IMG/VR virus record: IMGVR_UViG_643348545_000014
Direction: 5' to 3' (one strand)
Length of the DNA stretch: 12,008 bases
From: a virus
Lineage: Duplodnaviria > Heunggongvirae > Uroviricota > Caudoviricetes
The notes under the pieces were generated by a model that was not told the origin of the DNA, made no database searches, and was given only the letters and a program-made list of their open reading frames with translations. Below, piece by piece: positions 1 to 12,008 of the stretch; position 1 is the first letter of the stretch, and every line of letters starts with the position of its first letter. A program made the translations under genes and the position numbers.

Positions 1-1242
1 ATGGCGAGAAAAACACACCCATTAACCACAGTGCAGATCAAAGCAGCCAGACCAGCGCAAAAGGAGTACACCCTGCAGGACGGCGGAGGGCTTTTTCTCC
101 TGGTCAAACCGTCTGGATCAAAACTCTGGAGATTTTCCTACTACCGACCATCGGACAAAAAAAGAATATTGCTGAGTTTTGGATCGCTTGAAGATGTTTC
201 CCTGGCTGATGCCAGAAAACGCCGTAGCGAGTACAGGACGTTAATCAGTGCCGGAACTGACCCGCAGGACCACGAGAGGCAAAAAAGAGAGACAGAGGCC
301 CGAAGACAAGGGAACACGTTCGAAAATGTGGCGGCGGCATGGTACCAGGTGAAAATCAGCCAGAATCTGGCCCCCAACACGATTAAAGACATCTGGCGTT
401 CGCTGGATAAATATGTATTCCCGTTCATCGGCAACACGCCAATAGATACCCTCACCGCCCGAAGGTTCGTTGAAGTGCTTACCCCCATCAAGGAGCGCGG
501 CAACCTGGAAACACTCAAGCGGGTTTTACAGCGCGTTAATGAGGTAATGGATTACGCCGCCAACAGTGGGCTGATTGATGCCAATCCGGCTATGAATGTG
601 CGTAAGGCGTTTCCCTCACCTGTAAAAAAACATATGCCAACAATCCGCCCCGAACAGCTGCCGGAGCTTATGCAGGCTTTATCAGTATCGGCAACAGAAC
701 GGCAGACCAGATTACTGATTGAATGGCAGTTACTGACCGTAACCCGTCCCGCCGAAGCGTCATCAACGCGGTGGGATGAAATCAACCTGGACGCGAAGCA
801 ATGGACGATACCTGCCGGACGCATGAAGATGCGCAGGGATCACGTTATCCCGCTTTCCGGTCAGGCTATGGCGGTGCTGGAGGCCATGAAACCAATCAGC
901 CACCACCGCAATTACGTTTTCCCAAGTCTGAAAGACCCACAGCAGCCGATGAACAGCCAGACAGCTAACGCAGCATTGCGGCGTATGGGATTCGCTGGCG
1001 TGCTGGTGTCTCATGGATTACGCGCCATATTCAGCACAGCAGCGAACGAGGAAGGATTCGAGCCGGACGTAATAGAGGCGGCACTTGCCCACGTCGACAC
1101 CAACGAAGTTAGACGGGCATACAACCGGAGCAACTACATAGAAAAACGCATCGTGCTGATGCGCTGGTGGGGCGAATTTGTCGAGGCTGCGGCGACGGGC
1201 GTAACCCTCGCCAGTGGTAAAAGGGGTATCCGAGCCGTGTAG
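1..1242 (+). CDS. int: Site-specific tyrosine integrase, P4-like family
   Basis: 413-aa ORF. N-terminus MARKTHPLT..IKAA.P...Y.L.DG.GL.L.V.PSGSK.WRF.Y and C-terminal HGLRAIFST ... LAH...NEVRRAYNRSNY...MRWW match the P4-integrase family layout, with the catalytic Tyr in the RRAYNRSNY region (recalled family features). Confidence 0.9.
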   Translation: MARKTHPLTTVQIKAARPAQKEYTLQDGGGLFLLVKPSGSKLWRFSYYRPSDKKRILLSFGSLEDVSLADARKRRSEYRTLISAGTDPQDHERQKRETEARRQGNTFENVAAAWYQVKISQNLAPNTIKDIWRSLDKYVFPFIGNTPIDTLTARRFVEVLTPIKERGNLETLKRVLQRVNEVMDYAANSGLIDANPAMNVRKAFPSPVKKHMPTIRPEQLPELMQALSVSATERQTRLLIEWQLLTVTRPAEASSTRWDEINLDAKQWTIPAGRMKMRRDHVIPLSGQAMAVLEAMKPISHHRNYVFPSLKDPQQPMNSQTANAALRRMGFAGVLVSHGLRAIFSTAANEEGFEPDVIEAALAHVDTNEVRRAYNRSNYIEKRIVLMRWWGEFVEAAATGVTLASGKRGIRAV

Positions 1243-1738: not shown

Positions 1739-1945
1739 ATGGAAGCAATCAGAAAAATTATCTTTCGCCAGGAAGTAAAAAAAATTATCCACATCAAGGC
1801 AGACAGCACGCTGCAAAGCATGATCAACGCCGGAGAATTTCCGCAGGGTTTTCGCGTTGGTTTACGCCGTCGCGGATGGTATGAGGATGATGTGTTGGCC
1901 TGGCAGAAAGAACGCGAACAGGAAGCACGCGGAACGGCTGCTTAA
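1739..1945 (+). CDS. alpA: AlpA-family transcriptional regulator / excisionase-like HTH protein
   Basis: 68-aa protein with the pattern STLQSMINAGEFPQGFRVGLRRRGWYEDDVLAW, typical of the prophage AlpA family (TIY..I..G.FP.P..LG.R.VGW.E.EV..W). Its position directly downstream of int is canonical. Confidence 0.75.
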   Translation: MEAIRKIIFRQEVKKIIHIKADSTLQSMINAGEFPQGFRVGLRRRGWYEDDVLAWQKEREQEARGTAA

Positions 1946-2093
1946 CGGGTATCACAGATATGACAAACACGAAAAAAGCGGCCCCGATATGGAGCCGCCT
2001 TTCTGAACAATTAACCCGCTGCGCCTTATGTGTATATGATCCCAAACATAAGCACGGGGATGATAGCCGCTATCAGGCTGGTGGGCAATGCAA

Positions 2094-2282
2094 TCAGTCT
2101 GGTTCAGTTCGTTGCCATACCTGCAATGAGCGCGTTTCCCTGTACTCTTTAAGGAATTGCTCAAGGGCAAAAGCACATGGCGCGAATCTTTCTGATTCAT
2201 GCTCTATCTTTCTGCGCCGTCTTTTCCGTGCCGGTGATAATGTTTTGGTCAATTCTTTATCGGTCATTGTGTTGTCCTGCAT
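2094..2282 (-). CDS. Hypothetical small basic protein (57-62 aa, KRRRRK motif), downstream of the RHH gene on the minus strand
   Basis: ORF with ATG start; the internal ATG (MTDKEL...) has an AGGA-like RBS. No family recognised. Confidence 0.3.
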   Translation of the reverse strand: MQDNTMTDKELTKTLSPARKRRRRKIEHESERFAPCAFALEQFLKEYRETRSLQVWQRTEPD

Positions 2283-2324
2283 AGCAATGCGCCGTAATAC
2301 CTCACACCACGGCGCTGATAGTTT

Positions 2325-2516
2325 TTATCCTTTGGGTTCTATACCGCGCCGCTTTAGTTCAGTACGCCCCAACTCTTTAAGCCAGTTGGCTAGGCTTATG
2401 CCGTCGCTCTGTGCTTCTTTATCGAATTGCTCTTTTAGCTCTGGAGAAATTCGCATTCTGAATTGTGGGGATTGCCCGTCCCCTTTAGGGCTTTTATCGC
2501 GTTTGATTGTTGACAA
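2325..2516 (-). CDS. Ribbon-helix-helix (Arc/CopG-like) DNA-binding protein, candidate island repressor
   Basis: The segment FRMRISPELKEQFDKEAQSDGISLANWLKELGRTEL fits a beta-strand plus two-helix RHH pattern. A TTG start has an AGGTG RBS 5 nt upstream; an internal ATG gives a 44-aa alternative. The gene is divergent from the rightward replication operon. Confidence 0.5.
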   Translation of the reverse strand: MSTIKRDKSPKGDGQSPQFRMRISPELKEQFDKEAQSDGISLANWLKELGRTELKRRGIEPKG

Positions 2517-2561
2517 GTGGTCACCTATTGAATTAGCCTTTCTATTGTTAGGTGGTCACCT
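2510..2561 (+). promoter_or_regulatory. Candidate rightward promoter (TTGACA-18 bp-TAGCCT) with two GTGGTCACCT operator-like repeats 35 bp apart
   Basis: TTGACA at 2510-2515. Identical 10-mers GTGGTCACCT at 2517-2526 and 2552-2561, each containing the palindrome GGTCACC, placed in the spacer and just downstream of the predicted start site. Confidence 0.45.
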
Positions 2562-2650
2562 TAACACAAGAGCACTTAAAAAAGCAAAGCCCCGCAAGTG
2601 TCATTACCACTCGCAGGGCTTCTAACCAACAACGTAAACTAGGAGCCGTT

Positions 2651-3527: not shown

Positions 3528-3827
3528 ATGAGAACATATTTATCTGGCTTGACTGCCAGCGGTTATGCACACCCCAAAATTATCCCCGGCGCTATTTATC
3601 TGGATAAGAACGGTAACAGAGTAACGGTAAAAGAACTGATGTTTGACCGTGTTTATTTTATCCGTGATGGATATTCATTTCTTAGTTCGCTGAACGTGGA
3701 GATCTTTATTTGCAGATTCCGGCGGGAAATCCCGACTTCCAGAAATAACCATGTGTCACGTGTGGATGTGGATAAAAAACTACAGGAACTGAAAAACATG
3801 ATTGCCGCGTGGAGAGAGCAGAAATGA
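3528..3827 (+). CDS. Hypothetical protein (99 aa)
   Basis: GGGGA RBS 9 nt upstream; its stop overlaps the primase ATG (ATGA), indicating translational coupling. Confidence 0.5.
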   Translation: MRTYLSGLTASGYAHPKIIPGAIYLDKNGNRVTVKELMFDRVYFIRDGYSFLSSLNVEIFICRFRREIPTSRNNHVSRVDVDKKLQELKNMIAAWREQK

Positions 3828-5965
3828 AAAAAGCGCCAAATTTAAAACACCAGCCGCGTGACAAAATGACGGAAGTCATCATTTTTGCGGGTAGTGATGC
3901 CTGGGCACATGCGAAACAGTGGCAGGAACAGGACGGGCGACTGGCTGGCGATAACGTGCCTCCTGTCTGGCTTGGAGAGCAACAACTTGCCGAACTGGAT
4001 AAGCTGCAAATTGTGCCGGAAGGCCGAAAATCAGTACGCATATTCAGGGCCGGACATCTTGAGCCAGTAATGATCAAGGCGATTGGTCAGAAGCTGGCGG
4101 CGGCAGGCGTACAGGATGCAAATTTTTACCCTGATGGAATGCACGGTCAGGAGGTGGAGAACTGGCGCGAATATCTGGCCCGTGAGCGGCAGAATCTTTC
4201 TGATGGTCTGGTTATTGAGTTTCCGGTAAAGAAAAAAGATACCGGAAGCCATAGCGATGACGAATTAAAGCCACGCGTTGAAAGTCGCGCCGATGGTGTT
4301 TTCTGGGTAACGCCCAAAGTGGATAAGCAGTCAGGCGAAATTATCCGGCCTGAGACGTGGTTATGTTCTCCGCTTGAACTACTGGGAACGGGGACGATCG
4401 GTAAAGAGCATTACCGCGTCATGCGCTGGAAAAAATTAGCAAATCATGAAGTCATCACAATGGCGATCCCGTGTGGTGGCATTGGCGACCGTGACGGCTG
4501 GCGGTTGCTTAAAGATCACGGGCTGAACGTGACAACAAACGGCAAATACAGGGCTATCCTGGCTGACTGGATGCAGTTAAGCGGAAGCCATGAGGAATGG
4601 CAGTTAAGCACAACAACGGGCTGGCATTTTGACGCGTACATCATGCCGGACGGTTCAATCATTGGTGATTCTGAAAAACCGATCCTGTTTACCGGAAAAA
4701 GTGCCGCTATTAATGGCTATTCGGTTGCGGGTACGGCGGAGGGCTGGCGCGACAGCGTGGCGCGGCTGGCTGGTGGCAATCCGTCCATGATGCTGGGTAT
4801 TGCCACGTCACTGGCAGCACCGTTGATTGGCCTTGTTGGTGCTGACGGCTTCGGGGTACATCTTTTCGAACAGTCATCGGCAGGGAAAACCACCACGCAG
4901 AACATCGCATCAAGTTTATGGGGAGAGCCAGACTCACAACGGCTGACCTGGTACGGCACAGCGTTAGGTATCGCTAACGAGGCAGAGTCGCACAACGACG
5001 GGCTGTTACCCTTGGATGAAATAGGCCAGGCCGGAAACGCGCGGGAGGTGTCCACGTCAGCCTATACGTTGTTTAACGGTTCCGGGAAATTACAGGGGGC
5101 GAAGGACGGCGGCAACCGGGAGATAAAACACTGGCGCACGGTGGCAATCAGCACCGGAGAAATGGACGTTGAGACATTCCTCAAAACGGAGGGGATAAAA
5201 GTCAAAGCGGGGCAGCTTGTCCGCCTGCTTAACGTTCCGATGGAAAAAGCCACGCACTTTCACGAATACAGCACCGGAAAGGCGCACGCAGACGCGTTAA
5301 AGGATGCCTGGACAGAAAATCACGGGGCAGCGGGTCGTGAGTGGGTTAAATGGCTGGCAGGCCACCAGCAGGAGGCAAAGGATACGGTAAGGGAATGCCG
5401 CGAACGGTGGCGCAACCTGATACCGGAGAGCTACGGCGAGCAGGTCCACCGCGTGGGTGAGCGTTTCGCCATACTGGAGGCCGCGCTTGTGCTTTCCGGT
5501 CATGTAACTGGCTGGGCCGCGCAGGAATGCCGGGACGCAATACAGCATAACTTTAATGCCTGGGTGAAGGAGTTCGGCACGGGTAACAGGGAATTTAAAC
5601 AGATGGTTGAACAGGCTGAGGCGTTTTTGTCGTCGTTCGGGTTCAGTCGATACCTTCCTTACCCAAACAGTGATGAACGTGATTTACCGATTAAAGACCT
5701 TGCCGGATACAGAAAGGGGAGTATCAGAAATGAAGATGATGAGTTCCGTTTTTACACGTTTCCTCATGTGTTTGAGGGGGAGATCGCACAGGGATTTAAC
5801 CCGTCCCACTTTGCCCGCGCGTTGAGTGCTGCAGGAATGCTGGAAGCGGGTAACGATCGCCGTTACAAGAAAAAGGCGCTCGGCAAAATTGGGGGGAAGC
5901 AGCATGTTTTTTACGTACTGATGTTCCAGCCTGAGGCAGAAGATTACCCCCCCTGTGTGAGGTGA
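3824..5965 (+). CDS. Satellite replication protein: primase/replicase with a P-loop NTPase-like segment (Pri-Rep-like)
   Basis: About 713 aa from ATG 3824 (GGAGAG RBS; the ORF track begins at GTG 3809). Contains a P-loop-like SSAGKTT. Large size, position after alpA, and the iteron array immediately downstream all fit a replication initiator. Family assignment is by layout and motif only. Confidence 0.75.
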   Translation: MKKAPNLKHQPRDKMTEVIIFAGSDAWAHAKQWQEQDGRLAGDNVPPVWLGEQQLAELDKLQIVPEGRKSVRIFRAGHLEPVMIKAIGQKLAAAGVQDANFYPDGMHGQEVENWREYLARERQNLSDGLVIEFPVKKKDTGSHSDDELKPRVESRADGVFWVTPKVDKQSGEIIRPETWLCSPLELLGTGTIGKEHYRVMRWKKLANHEVITMAIPCGGIGDRDGWRLLKDHGLNVTTNGKYRAILADWMQLSGSHEEWQLSTTTGWHFDAYIMPDGSIIGDSEKPILFTGKSAAINGYSVAGTAEGWRDSVARLAGGNPSMMLGIATSLAAPLIGLVGADGFGVHLFEQSSAGKTTTQNIASSLWGEPDSQRLTWYGTALGIANEAESHNDGLLPLDEIGQAGNAREVSTSAYTLFNGSGKLQGAKDGGNREIKHWRTVAISTGEMDVETFLKTEGIKVKAGQLVRLLNVPMEKATHFHEYSTGKAHADALKDAWTENHGAAGREWVKWLAGHQQEAKDTVRECRERWRNLIPESYGEQVHRVGERFAILEAALVLSGHVTGWAAQECRDAIQHNFNAWVKEFGTGNREFKQMVEQAEAFLSSFGFSRYLPYPNSDERDLPIKDLAGYRKGSIRNEDDEFRFYTFPHVFEGEIAQGFNPSHFARALSAAGMLEAGNDRRYKKKALGKIGGKQHVFYVLMFQPEAEDYPPCVR

Positions 5966-6563: not shown

Positions 6564-6986
6564 ATGACAGCACAGATAGCGGCTTACGGGCGGCTGGTGG
6601 CTGACCCGCAGTTAAAGACCACCAGCAAGGGTACACAAATGACGATGGCTAGTATGGCGGTCCCCCTTCCGTGCAGCCAGGCAGATGACGGAACGGCGAC
6701 GATGTGGTTATCCGTCCTGGCGTTTGGCAGACAGGCCGACGCACTGGCAAAACACCACAAAGGCGAACTGGTGAGCGTGGCGGGTAACATGCAGGTAAGC
6801 CAGTGGACAGGCCAGAACGGCGAAACGCGGCAGGGCTGGCAGGTTATCGCAGACAGCGTAATCAGTGCGAGAACGGCGCGACCGGGCGGCAAAAAAGGCC
6901 AGCAGGGGCAGGCTACTGACGCACTGAACAGGGCAAAACAACAGGCGGGTAACGATGATCCGTACGGGGATAACATACCGTTTTAA
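6564..6986 (+). CDS. ssb: Single-stranded DNA-binding protein (SSB-like, OB fold)
   Basis: WLSVLAFGRQADALAKHHKGELVSVAGNMQVSQWTGQNGETRQGWQVIADSV aligns with the E. coli SSB core [50 protein letters not shown] (recalled). The C-terminal tail DDPYGDNIPF resembles the SSB DDDIPF tail. Confidence 0.75.
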   Translation: MTAQIAAYGRLVADPQLKTTSKGTQMTMASMAVPLPCSQADDGTATMWLSVLAFGRQADALAKHHKGELVSVAGNMQVSQWTGQNGETRQGWQVIADSVISARTARPGGKKGQQGQATDALNRAKQQAGNDDPYGDNIPF

Positions 6987-7075: not shown

Positions 7076-7203
7076 AAAGCGCATTTTTGTGATTTTATCG
7101 TCATCATCATCATGAGCGTAATTTATTGTTTTTAATTGTTTTGATGCAAAAAAGATGATGGTTGTGGTTAATTTTTGTTCGACATCTTTGCAGGCAGATA
7201 AAA

Positions 7204-7240: not shown

Positions 7241-7317
7241 GCATATGAGGTTTTTTGGTGCACTGACACACATGATCGGGATAATCATTTCATAATTTGC
7301 AACACAACTCAATATCA

Positions 7318-7373
7318 TTGCACAAAATGCAATCATGATTATAATCATAACTGGATGAACATCCAGTTATGAT
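7318..7373 (+). promoter_or_regulatory. Head-operon promoter candidate (TTGCAC-16 bp-TATAAT) overlapped by two perfect palindromes (operator candidates)
   Basis: -35 TTGCAC at 7318-7323 and -10 TATAAT at 7340-7345. 14-bp palindrome ATGATTATAATCAT at 7335-7348; 30-bp palindrome ATCATAACTGGATG-AA-CATCCAGTTATGAT at 7344-7373, followed by T6. Confidence 0.5.
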
Positions 7374-7401
7374 TTTTTAAGTCAAAGAGGAATTTCTTAC
7401 T

Positions 7402-7608
7402 ATGGCTGAAGAGAAAAAAGGCGGTATTTCGGTGTACATAAGCCCCGACATCGTGAAGGCGCTCAAGGAACGCCACCAGCAGAACGTAAAAGCAGGCATT
7501 GCGGCAGGACTTGATCCGCTGGCGATGGTTGAGCCGTCAACAGGCTGGCAGGTACGCGCCTATTTACGCGCGGCGCTGGGTATGAATCAGGTTCACGGGG
7601 GTGAATAA
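7402..7608 (+). CDS. Hypothetical small protein (68 aa) translationally coupled to the major capsid gene
   Basis: AAGAGG RBS; its stop overlaps the capsid ATG (TAATG). Function unknown. Confidence 0.5.
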   Translation: MAEEKKGGISVYISPDIVKALKERHQQNVKAGIAAGLDPLAMVEPSTGWQVRAYLRAALGMNQVHGGE

Positions 7609-8663
7609 TGACAGTAAAAGCAATATCACTTAACACTAACCAGCTTTTTGCGTACCTGAATCGCGAGGATATTGCGGAATTTAAATTCAGTCCGCTGTTT
7701 ACCGCGCTGTTTTTCCCGAACGTGGCGACATTCAACACACAGGACATCATGTTAGATAACCTGGATATTGAAGAAGTCACTATGTCGGCGTTTTGTTCGC
7801 CTATGGTGGGTAGCCAGGTTCAGCGCGATAAAGGGTACGAAACAAGCATTATTCGCCCTGGCTACATGAAGCCAAAACACGAAATCGATCCATTAAAAAC
7901 AATAATGCGCATGGCTGGAGAAGATCCAGCACAGCTTAACGACCCTACCTACCGCCGTATGCGCCTGATTACTGGCAACATGCGCCGCCAGATAAACGCC
8001 ATTAAAGCGCGCGTGGAATGGCTGGCGGTAAATGCGGTAACGACCGGAAAAAACATCATTGAGGGCGAAGGCATAGAGCGCTATGAAATCGACTGGAAGA
8101 TACCGGAAAAAAACATCATAGAGCAGGCCGACGGTAAAAAATGGTCAGAGCAGGACAAAGACATACACGACCCAATCTATGACATTGAGCTATACGCAGA
8201 TCAGGCAGGTTGCCCCGCAAACGTCATGATTATGGGCGTTGATGTATGGCGCATGTTACGCAGCTTTAAAAAATTCCGTGAACTGTACGATCTCTCCCGT
8301 GGTTCAGAATCCGCCGCAGAGCTGGCATGTAAAAACCTGGGCGAAGTGGTGAGCTTTAAAGGCTATCTTGGTGATCTGGCCCTTATCGTCTATTCCGGCA
8401 AATACACTGACAGCGACGGCACAGAAAAATATTTCCTTGAGCCTGATTTGCTGGTCCTGGGCAACACCAACAATAAAGGGCTGGTGGCCTATGGTGCGAT
8501 TATGGAACAGGAAGCGGTAAGAACGGGCGCAACGCAAAACATGTTTTACCCGAAAAACTGGATTGAGGACGGCGATCCGGCGATTGAGTACGTGCAGACG
8601 CACAGCGCACCGCAGCCGGTTCCGGCAGATATTCGCAAATTTGTTACCGTCAAAATTGGTTAA
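7608..8663 (+). CDS. Major capsid protein, lambda gpE-like
   Basis: 351 aa. Multiple conserved blocks against lambda gpE (recalled): FKFSPLFTALFF vs FKFDPLFLRLFF; PGYMKPKHEIDP vs PGYVKPKHEVNP; EDPAQLNDPTYRRMR vs EDPQNLADPAYRRRR; GYLGDLALIVYSGKY vs GMYGDVAIVVYSGQY; YPKNWIEDGDPA vs YPKNWVTTGDPA. Confidence 0.9.
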   Translation: MTVKAISLNTNQLFAYLNREDIAEFKFSPLFTALFFPNVATFNTQDIMLDNLDIEEVTMSAFCSPMVGSQVQRDKGYETSIIRPGYMKPKHEIDPLKTIMRMAGEDPAQLNDPTYRRMRLITGNMRRQINAIKARVEWLAVNAVTTGKNIIEGEGIERYEIDWKIPEKNIIEQADGKKWSEQDKDIHDPIYDIELYADQAGCPANVMIMGVDVWRMLRSFKKFRELYDLSRGSESAAELACKNLGEVVSFKGYLGDLALIVYSGKYTDSDGTEKYFLEPDLLVLGNTNNKGLVAYGAIMEQEAVRTGATQNMFYPKNWIEDGDPAIEYVQTHSAPQPVPADIRKFVTVKIG

Positions 8664-8675
8664 CGGGGGGATTCT

Positions 8676-9011
8676 ATGGACACTCCATACATTGAGTTAT
8701 TTGCAGGCAGTCAGCAGGTATCCACGACGCTGGTACATTTTGCCGCTGATGCTGGCGTTATTCAGGAATTTACCCCGCTGATGCTGGCGGACAATGGCGA
8801 GTTTAAGCCGTGGGATGGTCAGGAATCTGGCAAGGCTGTTTATCTGACTTCGTACCCCGTGGACACGTCAAAGCAGAAATCAGCACAGTGTTACAAGACG
8901 GGGATATTTAATATCGCCGCCGTAAACTGGCCTGAGAGCGCCGACACTGACGCGAAAAAATGCGCCGCCTTTGCGGGTTCTGGCGTATCCGTTCAGCCGC
9001 TGGCGCGATAA
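8676..9011 (+). CDS. Head decoration protein, lambda gpD-like
   Basis: 111 aa. Matches to lambda gpD (recalled): TPLMLAD vs TPLMLD, WDG, YKTGIF vs YKSGTF, WPESADTDAKKCAAFAGSGVSV vs [28 protein letters not shown] RBS. Confidence 0.8.
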   Translation: MDTPYIELFAGSQQVSTTLVHFAADAGVIQEFTPLMLADNGEFKPWDGQESGKAVYLTSYPVDTSKQKSAQCYKTGIFNIAAVNWPESADTDAKKCAAFAGSGVSVQPLAR

Positions 9012-9023
9012 GCAGGGGAAACG

Positions 9024-9437
9024 ATGGCAACGAATGAAAGCATCATGGCGCTACCGCTGGCGAGTAAATTTAAAGCAGAAGCGCGGGCAATGGCTGACAG
9101 AGGTTTATCAACCTACGAGGCCGTATATCAACTCAACAAACTGGAAGAACAGGACAAGCCGCGCGCTGATGCGATTATGGCGCTTCATGAACATAACGAC
9201 TATCAGCCGCTGTTACGTGCAATGGCAAACGTGCCATGTATTAGCGTCGATAATGCTCGTGAAATCCTGAACATGACCATAGAGCAGGAGCGCCCAAAGG
9301 TTGCACCAGAGCTTACCGCAGCCTTTGAAAACTTTATGGACATGCACAGCCCGCAAGCCGTATCAGCTGGCATGGCGTACGATGGCAGAAACCAGGGCGA
9401 TGACGGCGACATCGATCGCATACTGAAAACCATCTGA
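9024..9437 (+). CDS. Hypothetical protein (137 aa), last gene of the head operon, immediately upstream of cos
   Basis: AGGGGA RBS; followed by a terminator and cos. No family recognised; its position is analogous to lambda FI. Confidence 0.55.
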   Translation: MATNESIMALPLASKFKAEARAMADRGLSTYEAVYQLNKLEEQDKPRADAIMALHEHNDYQPLLRAMANVPCISVDNAREILNMTIEQERPKVAPELTAAFENFMDMHSPQAVSAGMAYDGRNQGDDGDIDRILKTI

Positions 9438-9442
9438 GACAA

Positions 9443-9467
9443 GGCCGGAGAAATCCGGCTTTTTTTT
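9443..9467 (+). terminator. Rho-independent terminator
   Basis: Stem GCCGGA / TCCGGC, loop GAAA, then T8. Confidence 0.6.
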
Positions 9468-9667
9468 ACGGGTCCTTTCCGGCATATGGACCCGTTACGG
9501 GGCGGCGACCTCGCGCGTTTTCACTATTTATGAAAATTTTCCGGGATCCATGTCCGGTTTCTCTGCAAGTTAACCATATGAAAAATATAAAAACATGCTT
9601 TCTATGAACCGGACATGCGCAAAAAACAGACACTAAAACCGGACATCGTACCCGTTAACCGGAAGTG
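9468..9667 (+). other. Lambda-type cos site (cosQ-like, cosN, and a cosB-like region with distinct repeats)
   Basis: ACGGGTCCTTTCCGG ... CCGTTACG|GGGCGGCGACCT CGCGCGTTTTCACTATTTATGAAAATTTTCCGG is near-identical to the lambda cos junction as recalled; the 12-nt cohesive-end sequence is at 9500-9511. Downstream are four AACCGGACAT-like elements (9550-9559 inverted; 9607-9616, 9637-9646, 9658-9667 direct) around an AT-rich segment, resembling the lambda R3-I1-R2-R1 layout but with a different repeat sequence. Confidence 0.8.
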
Positions 9668-9839
9668 TGCAAAAATCACACGCATTGCTGCGCGTGATTA
9701 ACAATTTATCGGCTTTACTGTTCTGTATAGGCTGGGTGGCGTCATGCCGTAGCCGTTCTCCGTGCCAGCATGGAATAATCCGTAGTTACAGAGCGGTAAA
9801 GTTAAAAATCACTTTCTGTTACGCCATCAAATACGCGAT

Positions 9840-10066
9840 ACAACAACCTTGTGTTTTTACAAAACCATTTGATATCATTGAATTTTTTCACATTAATGAC
9901 ATCAAAATACATCGTAAGGTTGTTGTATTTATTTTATTTTTACCTTACTTATCAATTAGATATACCAAACAATTAAACAACAACCACCCCCTCAAAAAAT
10001 CTCATAAATAGCGAAAAACCGCGAGGTCGCCGCCCCGTAACGGGCCATAATTCCAGGAAGGACCCG
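9840..10066 (-). other. Second cos-like site in inverted orientation (cosQ-like, cosN-like, and its own three 9-mer repeats)
   Basis: 10020-10044 is the exact reverse complement of 9491-9515 (25 bp). The reverse complement of 10012-10066 reads CGGGTCCTTCCTGG..CCCGTTACGGGGCGGCGACCTCGCGGTTTTTCGCTATTTATGAGATTTTTT. Adjacent repeats ACAACAACC at 9840-9848 and 9977-9985, GGTTGTTGT at 9918-9926. Confidence 0.6.
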
Positions 10067-10099: not shown

Positions 10100-10381
10100 A
10101 TGACAGAAGCCGAAATACTGGGATTAATCCGCCGCGTTGCCGGAATCAGCCAGCAGGTTGACGAACAGGCCACGCAGCCGGACAGCGTGACCGCTGAAAA
10201 TTATGCGCGTGTTGTTGCGGAGGTGATGCGCCGTGATGGTATAGAACTTAATGGCGTGGATATGCGCAACATACGAACCAGAGTTCTTGAGTTGCTGGCC
10301 TACCGTCGCCGCGTGGAGATGTATCGGGAGAAGGAGAAAATAACGTACCACTGGAAGAAGCCGGAGCGGTTGCGGCGGTAA
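10100..10381 (+). CDS. Hypothetical protein (93 aa) downstream of the cos pair
   Basis: GGGGG RBS 4 nt upstream of the ATG. Charged, helical-looking sequence; no family recognised. Confidence 0.5.
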   Translation: MTEAEILGLIRRVAGISQQVDEQATQPDSVTAENYARVVAEVMRRDGIELNGVDMRNIRTRVLELLAYRRRVEMYREKEKITYHWKKPERLRR

Positions 10382-10599
10382 CTGGTTGATATTCCCGACG
10401 GACCAAAAATGGGTGGCTACATCCCTCGCTTCTGAGGACTGTTAACAAGCTGCCTGAAAGACAGTCACAAACTACGAAATTTTCGCAGTTTAATTAATGA
10501 TCAGCTTAATCGCTCACCCGCTGATATTTTCGGAAACCTCAATTTGAGGAAGTCGGCGCGGTAACTCGCTGAACTTTAAGCAAAGCGCAAAATTGCGCT

Positions 10600-10930
10600 T
10601 GCTGAATAATCATTATGATTACGCAGATGATTAAGGAATGACCGAAGGCGGAAATTCGCCTGTGGTTAATGGGGGAGTTGCAGATCTGCAACTCGACCAT
10701 GAAACTACGGAAACTACCCGTAGTTTGGGTAGTAAGAGTAACACCCAGATTTTGGGGCTTACTCGTGATACCCAAATTTGGGGTATCGGTGGCAACCATA
10801 ACGACTTTCGTTACGGTTGATGCTTTTACCCCATTGGTGGAGGCTGGGCGGCCTGCTGTGGGCTTTTCCACCATTGGTGGAAAGGTGCAGATCTGGATCA
10901 TCATTACGGTGATCAAGGGTATGTAAAACC
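10600..10930. repeat. Palindrome- and repeat-dense region with no confident CDS (candidate regulatory DNA or structured RNA)
   Basis: TGCAGATCTGCA palindrome (10680-10691); interleaved inverted repeats AACTAC/GTAGTT and ACTACCC/GGGTAGT (10699-10729); paired CCCA(G/A)ATTTGGGG elements (about 10746-10786); CCATTGGTGG twice (10831-10840, 10872-10881). Short ORFs overlap in three frames. Confidence 0.4.
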
Positions 10931-10939
10931 CACCAGCCT

Positions 10940-11190
10940 GATTAACAGTTAACCGGAAAAAAAATCCGGCATGGGGGGGAGTGGTTAGCCACGAACAACG
11001 AATAAGCTGGACACCGCGCCCCCTCTCACGCAGAGAAAAAATTACCGTTTCGTAGTAGTTAACATGTTAACTGCCTGATGAAGCGTTGTTGTTGATTTTT
11101 TCTTTATGATTCATCTGGTTGCGTGCAAAAAATGTTAACTACCTTTTTGGTAAAAATGTTAACAGGGCAGCGGTTAACATTAACCAGGCG
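10940..11190. promoter_or_regulatory. Cluster of ATGTTAAC / GTTAAC motifs including a 16-bp perfect palindrome (candidate operator array)
   Basis: AGTTAACATGTTAACT at 11057-11072; ATGTTAAC at 11132-11139 and 11156-11163; inverted GTTAACAT at 11173-11180; GTTAAC at 10948-10953 and 10441-10446. Confidence 0.35.
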
Positions 11191-11432
11191 TAAATCCCGA
11201 TATGGTGATCCCCATATCGGGGAACATCCACCAGCTTAAAAACGAATGAGCGAAAAAAATCCAGGTAGAATTATGGAAGTCGCTAGGGCAATCGCCGTTT
11301 AAATTGTGCATTTTTTCAGCAAATTATTTTAGTTATACGTTTGGTTATACGGTTTAAAAGCTGAATCGATAATATTGATTAAAATCATACTGTTACACGC
11401 TCAATTAAACTACTCTCGTGAAAAATCCCAAG

Positions 11433-11522: not shown

Positions 11523-12008
11523 TCAGAACGTCCAGACCACACCCGCCTGAGTTGTGCTGCTTTCTTCACGGGAGAAACGGCTGTCGATACCGAGCGTCAG
11601 GCCCGTCAATGTTTGCTCAAAGCCAGCTCCCGCATCAGTGTTCACGTTGTTGCGGCTGTTAATTACCGAACTCCACATCGCCGTATCGTAATTAACGCCT
11701 TTTACGCTACCAAGACGCCCACGCACGGTGTCCAGTTCTGCATCAAATACCAGCGGTTGTGCTGCCGCCATATTCAGCACATCCGTGGTTGAAGGGGGCA
11801 TTTGTACGCGATTCTCTGCGAGACTCCAGCTATGGTTGCCATTATCCAGCAAGGTATATTCATACGTACTGATATCAACAACGCTTCCGGCATTGCCCAA
11901 CGTAAATGCCGCATCACCGCGCCCTCCTTTAATCGTGGGATCAGTCGCCGCGCCATAAACCTGTAGCACTCCATTATTGATCGTAGTCTGGTTTACCGCG
12001 CCACCCAT
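11523..12008 (-). CDS. C-terminal 161 aa of an autotransporter-like outer-membrane beta-barrel protein; possibly a truncated gene or fragment, with the true start perhaps beyond the window
   Basis: YTLLDNGNHSWSL junction-like motif, then AMWSSVINS...AGFEQTLTGLTLGIDSRF resembling the first barrel strands of AIDA/Ag43-type autotransporters, ending in VVWTF with a terminal aromatic. Double stop TGA TAA. Only about 60 residues follow the barrel start, far fewer than the ~250 of a full barrel. Confidence 0.45.
   Translation of the reverse strand: MGGAVNQTTINNGVLQVYGAATDPTIKGGRGDAAFTLGNAGSVVDISTYEYTLLDNGNHSWSLAENRVQMPPSTTDVLNMAAAQPLVFDAELDTVRGRLGSVKGVNYDTAMWSSVINSRNNVNTDAGAGFEQTLTGLTLGIDSRFSREESSTTQAGVVWTF

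What the first reader, a model, noticed from the sequence alone, without database searches (positions are those of the whole stretch)
7402..9437. Satellite-encoded lambda gpE-like major capsid and gpD-like decoration proteins without portal, protease or terminase
The island carries its own major capsid and decoration genes in one operon with two unknown small proteins, yet no portal, prohead protease/scaffold or terminase ORF is visible in the window. That differs from classical P4 or PICI capsid-size redirection, which uses scaffold-like factors acting on helper capsid protein, and from capsid-forming PICIs, which encode a full head set as I recall. It suggests the satellite substitutes its own shell subunits while using helper portal, scaffold, terminase and tail. 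The gene order is capsid then decoration, the reverse of lambda D-E.
Basis: partly seen in the sequence, partly recalled or inferred. Interest (0 to 1): 0.7.

Follow-up and report, generated by a model that had tools for sequence, protein, structure and literature searches.

The report
Known PICI satellite capsid gene module
The four-gene operon is the already published capsid module of a classical E. coli phage satellite of the EcCICFT073 type; near-identical copies have been deleted without stopping satellite transfer, so its role is still an open but known question.

Summary
Window 7402-9437 is a tight four-gene operon: a 68-aa unknown, a lambda gpE-family major capsid protein, a gpD-family decoration protein, and a 137-aa protein. 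No portal, protease or terminase lies in the island or beside it. The island is about 11.4 kb, between tRNA-Pro/yejM and yejO.

It is not new. The operon matches c1498-c1501 of EcCICFT073, the model Gram-negative PICI, at 93-97% protein identity. Its capsid and decoration genes were reported in 2018. Deleting either one, or replacing all four genes with cas9, left helper-mediated transfer intact. Packaged DNA was phage-sized. The capsid protein has a crystal structure (PDB 3BQW).

What I add:
- The 137-aa protein is a homologue of the Nu3/gpC C-terminal scaffold domain (hhalign 96.9%), so a scaffold-like gene is present.
- The capsid-decoration pair forms a PICI-specific lineage. Its members share 55-100% identity with the window protein; the nearest phage capsid is 48% or less.
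- The genes are under purifying selection (dN/dS 0.10-0.23).
- The operon is intact in 592 of 5426 complete E. coli genomes.
- This copy has no rpp or terS gene and carries a helper-type cos site.

Obligate replacement of the helper shell is contradicted. A facultative shell-building role is my preferred, untested reading.

The parts
1..1242 (+). [quoted passage not shown]
   Evidence: Pfam Phage_integrase E 5.7e-29, plus Arm-DNA-bind_3 and Phage_int_M. The homologous island sits downstream of tRNA-Pro.
1739..1945 (+). AlpA-like HTH regulator / excisionase
   Evidence: PHROG 66, E 5.5e-7. Pfam Phage_AlpA E 0.0035, which is below the gathering score.
3528..3827 (+). DUF4222 protein that precedes the replication gene in all related PICIs
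   Evidence: Pfam E 5.9e-17. Same position.
3809..5965 (+). DUF927-type primase (replication module)
   Evidence: Pfam DUF927 E 8e-48. PHROG 1139 DNA primase E 1e-186.
6564..6986 (+). Single-strand DNA-binding protein
   Evidence: Pfam SSB E 4.4e-16.
7289..7380 (+). Conserved promoter-like region, followed by a 14-bp hairpin with a T-run just upstream of the operon
   Evidence: Consensus scan. The block ATTTCATAATTTGCAAC...TGATTATAATCA is conserved even in the diverged loci L006 and L008. Function not tested.
7402..7608 (+). 68-aa protein (c1498 homologue), function unknown
   Evidence: PHROG 3255, unknown function, E 2e-36. 97% identical to the CFT073 protein. AlphaFold2 gives two helices at pLDDT 75, with no fold match.
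7608..8663 (+). Major capsid protein of the lambda gpE family (c1499 homologue)
   Evidence: Pfam Phage_cap_E E 3.9e-49. PDB 3BQW E 7e-229 and lambda gpE 7VI9 E 4e-81. 95% identical to CFT073 c1499. dN/dS 0.14.
8676..9011 (+). Head decoration protein of the lambda gpD family (c1500 homologue)
   Evidence: Pfam HDPD E 1e-17. PHROG 49 E 4e-27. 97% identical to the CFT073 protein. dN/dS 0.10.
9024..9437 (+). 137-aa homologue of the Nu3/gpC C-terminal scaffold domain, without a protease domain (c1501 homologue)
   Evidence: PHROG 53 head maturation protease, profile positions 494-567 of 583, E 7e-10. 36-37% identical to residues 416-493 of the helper S49 proteases. hhalign against a gpC C-terminal alignment: probability 96.9%, E 1.4e-10, 111 columns. 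AlphaFold2 model is all-helical at pLDDT 62.
9441..9470 (+). Intrinsic terminator that closes the operon
   Evidence: 9-bp stem with 5 G-C pairs followed by a T-run.
9469..9650 (+). cos1: lambda-type cos. cosN GGGCGGCGACCT lies at 9500-9511. The cosB has three CCGGACATS repeats.
   Evidence: 94% identical over 184 nt to the cos region just upstream of Nu1 in phage PhiR12_1.
9541..9994 (.). Low-GC (38.5%) cassette between the two cos sites. In relatives this position holds rppA or a Nu1-family terS; here it holds neither.
   Evidence: Its only long ORF, 9667-10011, has no family match.
9995..10066 (-). cos2: an inverted second cosN (10024-10035), part of a 72-nt inverted repeat with cos1
   Evidence: EcCICFT073 has the same two-cos arrangement (PMC6092414).
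10100..10381 (+). 93-aa conserved protein downstream of cos2, function unknown; it is not Rpp
   Evidence: PHROG 1561, unknown function, E 3e-57. No PDB match. Present in the related islands except Salmonella L011.
11327..11352 (+). attR core repeat, the right end of the island
   Evidence: Direct repeat in L001 at 5902-5938 and 16884-16920. Located in the window.
11523..12008 (-). Chromosomal yejO autotransporter fragment, outside the island
   Evidence: Annotation of the homologous loci.

Best explanation
What it is (confidence about 0.95): the late, or 'capsid', module of a classical cos-type Gram-negative phage-inducible chromosomal island of the EcCICFT073 family.
- The island is about 11.4 kb and is inserted between tRNA-Pro/yejM and yejO.
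- Its layout is int, alpA, DUF4222, primase, SSB, then the four-gene operon: 68-aa unknown, gpE-type capsid protein, gpD-type decoration protein, Nu3-like scaffold-domain protein. After a terminator come two inverted lambda-type cos sites around a variable cassette, then a 93-aa gene.
- The helper lambdoid phage supplies portal, protease, terminase, connectors and tail.
- This copy has no rpp or terS. It carries a helper-type cosB of the PhiR12 kind, so it should be recognised directly by the helper terminase. That last step is inferred.

How the operon works (inferred, confidence about 0.4): it is a self-consistent but facultative shell kit.
- The capsid protein, its co-evolving cement protein and, in most E. 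coli members, a Nu3-like core protein are made late.
- They assemble into procapsid shells nucleated on helper portals. These shells add to, or replace, helper-made shells as containers for cos-cut PICI concatemers.
- With the helpers tested so far the helper shell is sufficient, so the kit is dispensable in the laboratory.
- Its value would appear when helper capsid protein is limiting, disrupted (as in helper-embedded PICIs inserted in gene E) or targeted.
For: Identity of the element:
- The proteins are 97%, 95%, 97% and 93% identical to CFT073 c1498-c1501, in the same order, with the same two inverted cosN sites.
- RppA of CFT073 was confirmed by its match to PDB 6HLK.
- att repeats and chromosomal flanks bound the island.

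The genes are functional, not relics:
- dN/dS is 0.14, 0.10 and 0.23 for the capsid, decoration and Nu3-like genes.
- The full operon is intact in 592 of 5426 complete E. coli genomes.
- Capsid homologues at 55-92% identity were found. The five sampled loci, carrying homologues at 55-68% identity, are all int-alpA-primase islands with a decoration gene next door and no portal, S49 protease or TerL.
- The best phage capsid is only 48% identical.

A coherent kit:
- Capsid and decoration identities fall together across loci: 100/100, 95/97, 84/85, 68/54, 62/50 and 55/52.
- The third gene is Nu3-like.
- PDB 3BQW shows the capsid protein is a folded protein.

Inference from established lambda biology (my own knowledge): gpD trimers bind only the three-fold sites of expanded, DNA-filling gpE lattices. 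A conserved cognate decoration protein therefore implies that lattices of PICI capsid protein reach that state.

Helper-embedded PICIs interrupt the helper's gene E while carrying their own copy (locus L015; PMC10111431).
Against: Experiments on the near-identical EcCICFT073 module:
- Deleting c1499 or c1500 did not change transfer by the natural helper or interference with lambda.
- c1499::cat transferred at 1e5-1e6 per ml.
- Packaged DNA was phage-sized (PMC6092414).
- An island with c1498-c1501 replaced by cas9 was still packaged and delivered by phi80 delta-cos (PMC10530653).
- So no contribution of the module to particle formation has ever been seen.

Other points:
- The PICI capsid protein is only 45% identical to that of its proven helper. 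Use of the helper's portal and protease is therefore not guaranteed.
- The Nu3-like gene is missing in a Salmonella member and replaced by an AlpA-like gene in the 55% clade. The 'kit' is therefore not uniform.
- No particle-composition data exist.
Confidence: 0.45

Rival explanations
1. Obligate shell substitution. Satellite particles are built from the satellite's own capsid and decoration proteins, and the helper provides only portal, protease, terminase and tail.
For: The island encodes capsid, decoration and Nu3-like proteins but no portal, protease or terminase. These genes are under purifying selection.
Against: Deleting c1499 or c1500, or replacing the whole c1498-c1501 block, leaves transfer intact in an element that is 93-97% identical. 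The DNA packaged with lambda was phage-sized.
Confidence: 0.04
2. Ccm-like capsid size or shape redirection. With cognate helpers other than lambda and phi80, the PICI capsid protein, alone or mixed with helper capsid protein, builds small shells. These would fit one copy of the 11.4-kb island and exclude the helper genome.
For: - SaPIbov5 Ccm is a satellite capsid homologue that redirects helper capsid assembly (PMC8569155).
- PmCI172 encodes a capsid homologue and makes small heads (PMC6092414).
- An own scaffold-like protein is present.
Against: - Only phage-sized DNA was found for EcCICFT073 with lambda.
- cos islands must keep a size that is an exact fraction of the helper genome (PMC10530653). 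That points to multimer packaging into full-size heads.
- The knockouts did not relieve interference.
Confidence: 0.12
3. Interference or decoy. The PICI capsid, decoration and Nu3-like proteins poison helper head assembly or sequester helper portal, protease or scaffold. This lowers helper yield and is redundant with Rpp.
For: - The Nu3-like protein shares a motif with the C-terminus of the helper protease/scaffold, so it could compete with it.
- Interference is a general PICI trait.
- Redundancy with Rpp would explain why the single knockouts showed no phenotype.
Against: - Expressing the individual genes downstream of the ori from pBAD showed that only c1503 (rppA) inhibited lambda (PMC6739421).
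- Deleting rppA restored plaquing almost fully.
- A cognate decoration protein has no obvious role in a decoy.
Confidence: 0.15
4. A non-virion role for a conserved capsid-like shell. Examples would be modulating host or satellite defence systems that sense phage capsid proteins, or forming an encapsulin-like compartment.
For: The module is long conserved yet has no transfer or interference phenotype. PICIs often carry defence cargo; this last point is my own knowledge of Fillol-Salom et al. 2022 and was not checked here.
Against: There is no direct evidence. The module always sits next to the cos/packaging region and includes head-specific partners, a gpD-like and a Nu3-like protein. That points to virion assembly.
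Confidence: 0.08
5. A decaying remnant of a lambdoid prophage or of a capsid-forming PICI, with no current function.
For: The module is dispensable in every assay published.
Against: - dN/dS is 0.10-0.23.
- The operon is full-length in 592 genomes.
- The capsid-decoration pair is retained down to 55% identity in several enterobacterial genera.
- The island has intact att sites, int, primase and cos.
- The flanks are chromosomal genes.
Confidence: 0.03

Closest known systems
EcCICFT073 (E. coli CFT073 PICI), genes c1498-c1501 (Fillol-Salom et al. 2018, ISME J, PMC6092414)
   Same: - Same four genes in the same order, at 97%, 95%, 97% and 93% protein identity.
- Same terminator.
- Same pair of inverted lambda-type cosN sites.
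- Same downstream 93-aa gene.
- The capsid protein has the crystal structure 3BQW.
   Different: - Different integration site: yejM/yejO here, roxA/phoQ in CFT073.
- Different primase: DUF927 of 718 aa here, a 584-aa primase in CFT073. There is no PerC gene here.
- The cassette between the cos sites lacks rppA.
- cos1 carries a phage PhiR12-type cosB.
Lambda head genes Nu3/C, D and E
   Same: The three products are homologous. The capsid protein is 43% identical and the decoration protein 37%. The Nu3-like protein matches at profile level, 96.9%.
   Different: - The order is exactly reversed: E, D, Nu3-like instead of Nu3, D, E.
- There is no S49 protease domain, portal, W, FI, FII or terminase.
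- The Nu3-like protein shows no significant pairwise similarity to lambda gpC itself. It does match the phage-21/PhiR12-type proteases.
SaPIbov5 Ccm (satellite-encoded capsid homologue that redirects phi12 capsids)
   Same: A cos-type satellite that carries a homologue of its helper's major capsid protein (PMC8569155).
   Different: - Ccm has a demonstrated size and shape redirection phenotype.
[quoted passage not shown]
- The module here also brings a decoration protein and a scaffold-like protein.
Capsid-forming PICIs (EcCIEDL933 type)
   Same: Same int-alpA-rep backbone, and satellite-encoded capsid protein.
   Different: Capsid-forming PICIs also encode portal, protease, head-tail connectors, HNH, TerS and TerL, and they make their own small capsids. 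None of those genes is present here.
Helper-embedded PICIs (11capE type; Mageeney et al. 2023, PMC10111431)
   Same: Same capsid-decoration core and cos/TerS region. Loci L008 and L015 are such elements, with capsid proteins 85% and 55% identical to the window's.
   Different: Those islands are inserted inside helper late genes, often gene E. The window island is at a chromosomal site.

Membership tests
Classical Gram-negative PICI (EcCICFT073 family) | Integrase at one end, with genes co-oriented | tested here: met
   int lies at 1-1242. The main genes are all on the + strand.
Classical Gram-negative PICI (EcCICFT073 family) | AlpA-type regulator downstream of int | tested here: met
   1739-1945: PHROG excisionase/regulator, E 5.5e-7. 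Pfam AlpA scores 17.6 bits, below the 21-bit cut-off, so this is a weak but positional match. Same position as in L012 and L014.
Classical Gram-negative PICI (EcCICFT073 family) | Own primase/replication gene | tested here: met
   DUF927 primase, E 8e-48. The origin of replication was not mapped.
Classical Gram-negative PICI (EcCICFT073 family) | Size of about 10-20 kb, bounded by att repeats at a specific chromosomal site | tested here: met
   The att repeats are 10,982 bp apart in L001. The window island is about 11.4 kb.
Classical Gram-negative PICI (EcCICFT073 family) | Packaging signal or factor matching the helper (cos, rpp or terS), with no lysis, tail, portal or TerL genes | tested here: met
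   Two cosN sites are present. cos1 is 94% identical to a phage cos region. There are no structural or lysis hits other than the capsid module.
Classical Gram-negative PICI (EcCICFT073 family) | Induction, replication and high-frequency transfer by a helper phage | not testable with these tools
   Shown experimentally only for EcCICFT073 itself (PMC6092414).
Lambda gpE major capsid protein family (PF03864) | Full-length match above the curated threshold, with the HK97-like fold | tested here: met
   167.9 bits against a 22.9-bit cut-off. Solved structure 3BQW, E 7e-229.
Lambda gpD head decoration family (PF02924) | Match above the curated threshold | tested here: met
   64.7 bits against a 29.1-bit cut-off.
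Lambda gpC/Nu3 protease-scaffold | C-terminal scaffold (Nu3) domain | tested here: met
   hhalign probability 96.9%, E 1.4e-10, over 111 columns. PHROG 53 C-terminus, E 7e-10.
Lambda gpC/Nu3 protease-scaffold | S49 peptidase domain | tested here: not met
   The 137-aa protein has no Pfam hit. Only the region corresponding to residues 416-493 of the helper protease aligns.
Capsid-forming PICI | Portal, protease, head-tail connectors and TerL encoded by the island | tested here: not met
   No such ORF in the window or in the related islands.
P4-like satellite | sid, psu and delta genes | tested here: not met
   No ORF matched these families in the Pfam or PHROG scans.
Ccm-type capsid redirection (SaPIbov5) | Satellite capsid homologue that produces satellite-sized capsids | not testable with these tools
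   The capsid homologue is present. [quoted passage not shown] Natural helpers of this island have not been tested.

The most novel reading that the evidence does not exclude
This PICI lineage may be a 'shell-only' capsid-forming satellite, a third strategy between pure hijacking and capsid-forming PICIs. With its natural helpers, or when the helper capsid gene is interrupted as in helper-embedded PICIs, its own capsid, decoration and Nu3-like proteins would build the shell on a stolen helper portal, using the helper's protease and terminase. The published null phenotypes would then reflect only that helper shells are an adequate substitute under laboratory conditions.
Probability: 0.2. Interest if true: 0.65.

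Novelty: already known. Interest (0 to 1): 0.3.

Why it matters
The element and its capsid and decoration genes have been in the literature since 2018. The capsid protein even has a crystal structure. As a discovery the finding is therefore ordinary.

The unresolved part is still interesting. A capsid-decoration pair has been kept under purifying selection in a satellite-specific lineage across several enterobacterial genera, and it is intact in about 11% of complete E. coli genomes. Yet its removal has no measurable effect in any published assay.

Recognising the third gene as a Nu3-like scaffold domain makes the shell-kit hypothesis concrete. It can be tested by particle proteomics, by complementing helper gene E knockouts, and by co-expression with helper portal and protease.

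These islands are also being engineered as delivery vehicles with exactly this module swapped for cargo. Knowing what the module does has practical value for that work.

Tried and rejected
Searches that led nowhere:
- The genome-contig scan with the capsid protein confirmed no loci. I used E. coli genomes and encoding-contig look-ups instead.
- The 68-aa protein has no Pfam or NCBIfam hit. AlphaFold2 gives two helices at pLDDT 75, and Foldseek against the PDB finds nothing. An RHH DNA-binding fold, which I suspected by eye, is not supported. Function unknown.
- The AlphaFold2 model of the 137-aa protein is helical but low-confidence (pLDDT 62) and has no PDB fold match. The Nu3 assignment therefore rests on sequence and profile evidence only.
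- phmmer of the 137-aa protein against 1.84 billion representatives found only 8 relatives. The family is narrow.
- Literature searches found no paper that assigns a function to c1498-c1501 or calls c1501 Nu3-like. The library lacks most subscription journals.

Ideas tested and rejected:
- The 93-aa protein is not Rpp: it has no PDB hit. The CFT073 144-aa protein matches RppC at 5e-31.
- I tested whether the Nu3-like protein co-varies with, or mimics, each island's own helper protease C-terminus. It is hypervariable: 41-45% identity between loci whose capsids are 84-96% identical. But the L008 protein shows no significant similarity to the protease of the prophage it sits in, and their cosN sequences also differ. 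Not supported.
- 'Ordinary prophage fragment' is rejected on the att repeats and chromosomal flanks.
- 'Capsid-forming PICI' and 'P4-like satellite' are rejected on gene content.
Full report
OBSERVATION

The window holds a tight four-gene operon on the + strand.
- 7402-7608 encodes 68 aa.
- 7608-8663 encodes 351 aa.
- 8676-9011 encodes 111 aa.
- 9024-9437 encodes 137 aa.

The genes are separated by a 1-nt overlap and two 12-nt gaps, and each has a ribosome-binding site. An intrinsic terminator follows at 9441-9470.

The 351-aa protein matches Pfam Phage_cap_E end to end, E 3.9e-49. It is 43% identical to lambda gpE. The 111-aa protein matches Pfam HDPD, E 1e-17, and is 37% identical to gpD.

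No ORF in the window matches portal, S49/ClpP protease or terminase in Pfam or PHROGs.

WHAT THE ISLAND IS

The rest of the window reads as follows:
- integrase, 1-1242
- AlpA-like regulator, 1739-1945
- DUF4222 protein, 3528-3827
- DUF927 primase, 3809-5965
- SSB, 6564-6986
- the operon, 7402-9437
- two inverted copies of the lambda cohesive-end sequence GGGCGGCGACCT, at 9500-9511 (+) and 10024-10035 (-), inside 72-nt inverted arms
- a 93-aa gene, 10100-10381
- an att repeat, 11327-11352
- a fragment of the chromosomal autotransporter gene yejO

In the closest complete genome (E. coli DETEC-S792, 99% identity over the shared parts) the same island lies between tRNA-Pro/yejM and yejO/narP. Its att repeats are 10,982 bp apart. 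The whole element, about 11.4 kb, therefore lies inside the window apart from roughly 90 bp upstream of int. Nothing phage-like lies just outside.

IT IS A PUBLISHED ELEMENT TYPE

I fetched the CFT073 chromosome and found the same architecture next to phoQ. The window proteins are 97%, 95%, 97% and 93% identical to its 68-aa, capsid, decoration and 137-aa proteins. CFT073 has the same two inverted cosN sites.

This is EcCICFT073, the model Gram-negative PICI. Published work on it shows the following.
- Fillol-Salom et al. 2018 (PMC6092414) named c1499 a putative capsid protein and c1500 a head decoration protein.
- Deleting either gene changed neither transfer by the resident helper nor interference with lambda.
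- All packaged DNA was phage-sized.
- Both cos sites are functional.
- Ibarra-Chavez et al. 2020 (PMC10530653) replaced the whole c1498-c1501 block with cas9. A phi80 delta-cos helper still packaged and delivered the island.
- Mageeney et al. 2023 (PMC10111431) state that a capsid gene is present in 21 of 29 reference Gram-negative PICIs and is not required for transfer.

The capsid protein also has a crystal structure, PDB 3BQW ('putative capsid protein of prophage'), E 7e-229.

This is the classical Gram-negative PICI. Obligate use of a satellite-made shell is contradicted by experiments on a near-identical module.

WHAT I CAN ADD

1. The 137-aa protein is not an orphan.
- It matches the C-terminal end of the PHROG 'head maturation protease' profile, positions 494-567 of 583, E 7e-10.
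- It aligns at 36-37% identity with residues 416-493 of the S49 protease/scaffold of phage PhiR12_1 and of CFT073's own helper phage 4.
- A profile-profile comparison with an alignment of gpC/Nu3 C-termini, lambda included, gives probability 96.9%, E 1.4e-10, over 111 columns.
- It has no protease domain.
- The module is therefore capsid, cement and a Nu3-like scaffold domain. I found no paper that says this, though the searchable library is incomplete.

2. The genes are maintained by selection.
- dN/dS between the window and CFT073 is 0.14 for the capsid gene, 0.10 for the decoration gene and 0.23 for the Nu3-like gene.
- The full operon is present at more than 80% coverage in 592 of 5426 complete E. 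coli genomes, including Nissle 1917 and O157:H7 strains.

3. The capsid belongs to a satellite-specific lineage.
- The best match among 50,697 phage records is 48% identical.
- Its proven helper's capsid is 45% identical.
- Homologues at 55-92% identity occur in Escherichia, Salmonella, Edwardsiella, Serratia, Lelliottia and Cedecea.
- The five loci I sampled, carrying homologues at 55-68% identity, are all int-alpA-DUF4222-primase islands with a decoration gene next to the capsid gene and no portal, protease or TerL.
- Two of the related loci are helper-embedded PICIs: L008 and L015.

4. The capsid-decoration pair is the constant core, and the two proteins diverge together. The third gene is not constant.
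- It is hypervariable: 41-45% identity between loci whose capsids are 84-96% identical.
- It is absent in a Salmonella member.
- It is replaced by an AlpA-like gene in the 55% clade.

5. This particular island lacks the packaging-redirection gene.
- CFT073, L006, L008 and L013 carry Rpp between the cos sites. The CFT073 protein matches PDB 6HLK at 5e-31.
- S792 and O157 SS52 carry a Nu1-family TerS there, Pfam E 3e-23.
- The window has only 454 bp of 38.5% GC DNA there, with no recognisable gene.
- Instead, cos1 with its flanks (9463-9646) is 94% identical to the cos region just upstream of Nu1 in PhiR12-type lambdoid phages.
- That region includes three CCGGACATS repeats, one on the opposite strand from the other two, an arrangement I recall for the R elements of lambda cosB.
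- I infer that this variant is recognised directly by a PhiR12-like helper terminase.

HOW IT MOST LIKELY WORKS

Shown, by homology and by published experiments on the CFT073 element:
- The helper supplies portal, protease, terminase and tail.
- The helper can also supply the shell.
- The DNA is cut at cos.

Inferred: the operon is a facultative shell kit.

My main argument comes from established lambda biology (my own knowledge). gpD trimers bind only at the three-fold sites of an expanded gpE lattice during DNA filling. A cognate decoration protein that co-evolves with the PICI capsid protein under strong purifying selection makes sense only if lattices of PICI capsid protein reach that state. 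This favours real DNA-containing shells over decoys. The Nu3-like protein fits the same picture. So do helper-embedded PICIs that interrupt the helper's gene E while carrying their own copy (PMC10111431).

I put about 0.4 on this mechanism. The rivals are:
- interference or sequestration, redundant with Rpp: 0.15
- Ccm-like size redirection with untested natural helpers: 0.12
- a non-virion role: 0.08
- obligate substitution: 0.04
- a relic: 0.03

The published null phenotypes weigh against all of the virion roles equally. No particle-composition data exist.

DEAD ENDS

- The 68-aa protein stays unknown: two predicted helices and no fold or family match.
- The 137-aa model is helical but low-confidence and has no structural match.
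- The idea that the Nu3-like protein mimics each island's own helper protease was not borne out for the helper-embedded locus L008.
- The genome-contig scan returned nothing usable.

VERDICT

The finding is already known, so interest is low to moderate (0.3). What value remains lies in the still-open question of why a satellite lineage keeps a dispensable capsid kit, and in the concrete tests listed under next steps.

Noticed in passing
window 9469-10066: Two inverted lambda-type cos sites flank a variable cassette. Relatives carry rppA or a Nu1-family terS there. This island carries neither, only 454 bp of 38.5% GC DNA. Its cos1 has a complete phage-type cosB that is 94% identical to PhiR12-type phages. 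This looks like an rpp-less variant that copies the helper's own packaging site.
   Followed up: partly
window 9840-9985: The motif ACAACAACC occurs three times, at 9840 (+), 9918 (-) and 9977 (+), where 0.1 is expected by chance. It lies on the cos2 side of the cassette, and the segment is also conserved in the diverged locus L006. It may be the binding-site array (cosB) for cos2, or for an Rpp/TerS that this copy has lost.
   Followed up: partly
window 7289-7380: A strongly conserved promoter-like block (TTGCAC, a 17-nt spacer, TATAAT) is followed by a 14-bp hairpin and a T-run immediately upstream of the operon. It is conserved even where the flanks have diverged, and the hairpin seems to be kept by different sequences in L006 and L008. 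It could be a late promoter with an antitermination or attenuation checkpoint.
   Followed up: partly
window 7100-7190: A 90-nt stretch between the SSB gene and the operon is 83-88% identical to unannotated intergenic DNA of several Stx-converting phages. Meaning unknown. It might be an origin or a regulatory remnant shared with lambdoid helpers.
   Followed up: no
window 10440-11179: The heptamer TGTTAAC occurs eight times on both strands between the 93-aa gene and attR, where 1.8 is expected by chance. These may be arm-type binding sites for integrase or excisionase.
   Followed up: no
window 1960-2625: The 221-aa + strand ORF is annotated as 'hypothetical protein' in the homologous RefSeq island. 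It has no family match and an odd Cys/Ser/Arg-rich composition. The opposite strand holds an Arc/HicB-like 63-aa ORF (2325-2516) and a PHROG 21027 ORF (2094-2282). The local AT skew is also reversed. The + strand call is probably a misannotation.
   Followed up: partly
window 3809-5965, compared with L001, L004, L009 and L012: The replication module is swapped among islands that share a nearly identical capsid module. The variants are a DUF927 primase (718 aa) here, a 582-584-aa primase in S792 and CFT073, and a RepA/AAA_25 helicase in O157 SS52 and L012. PICIs appear to be mosaics of exchangeable modules.
   Followed up: partly
L008 (NZ_CM143727, island inside a prophage) and L010: A helper-embedded PICI sits between the head genes and P2-like baseplate and tail genes of a prophage. 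Its cosN (GGGGGTACGTGTAC) differs from the cosN of that prophage (GAGGGTCTGGGGAC). The surrounding prophage may therefore not be its packaging helper.
   Followed up: partly
protein P0100: A 463-aa product on a Logan contig carries both Phage_cap_E and HDPD domains. It is either a capsid-decoration fusion or a sequencing frameshift, in the clade with 56% identity to the window capsid.
   Followed up: no
window 11523-12008: The yejO autotransporter next to the island ends early in this window, and it is annotated as frameshifted or partial in the closest genome. It looks like a pseudogene at the island junction.
   Followed up: no
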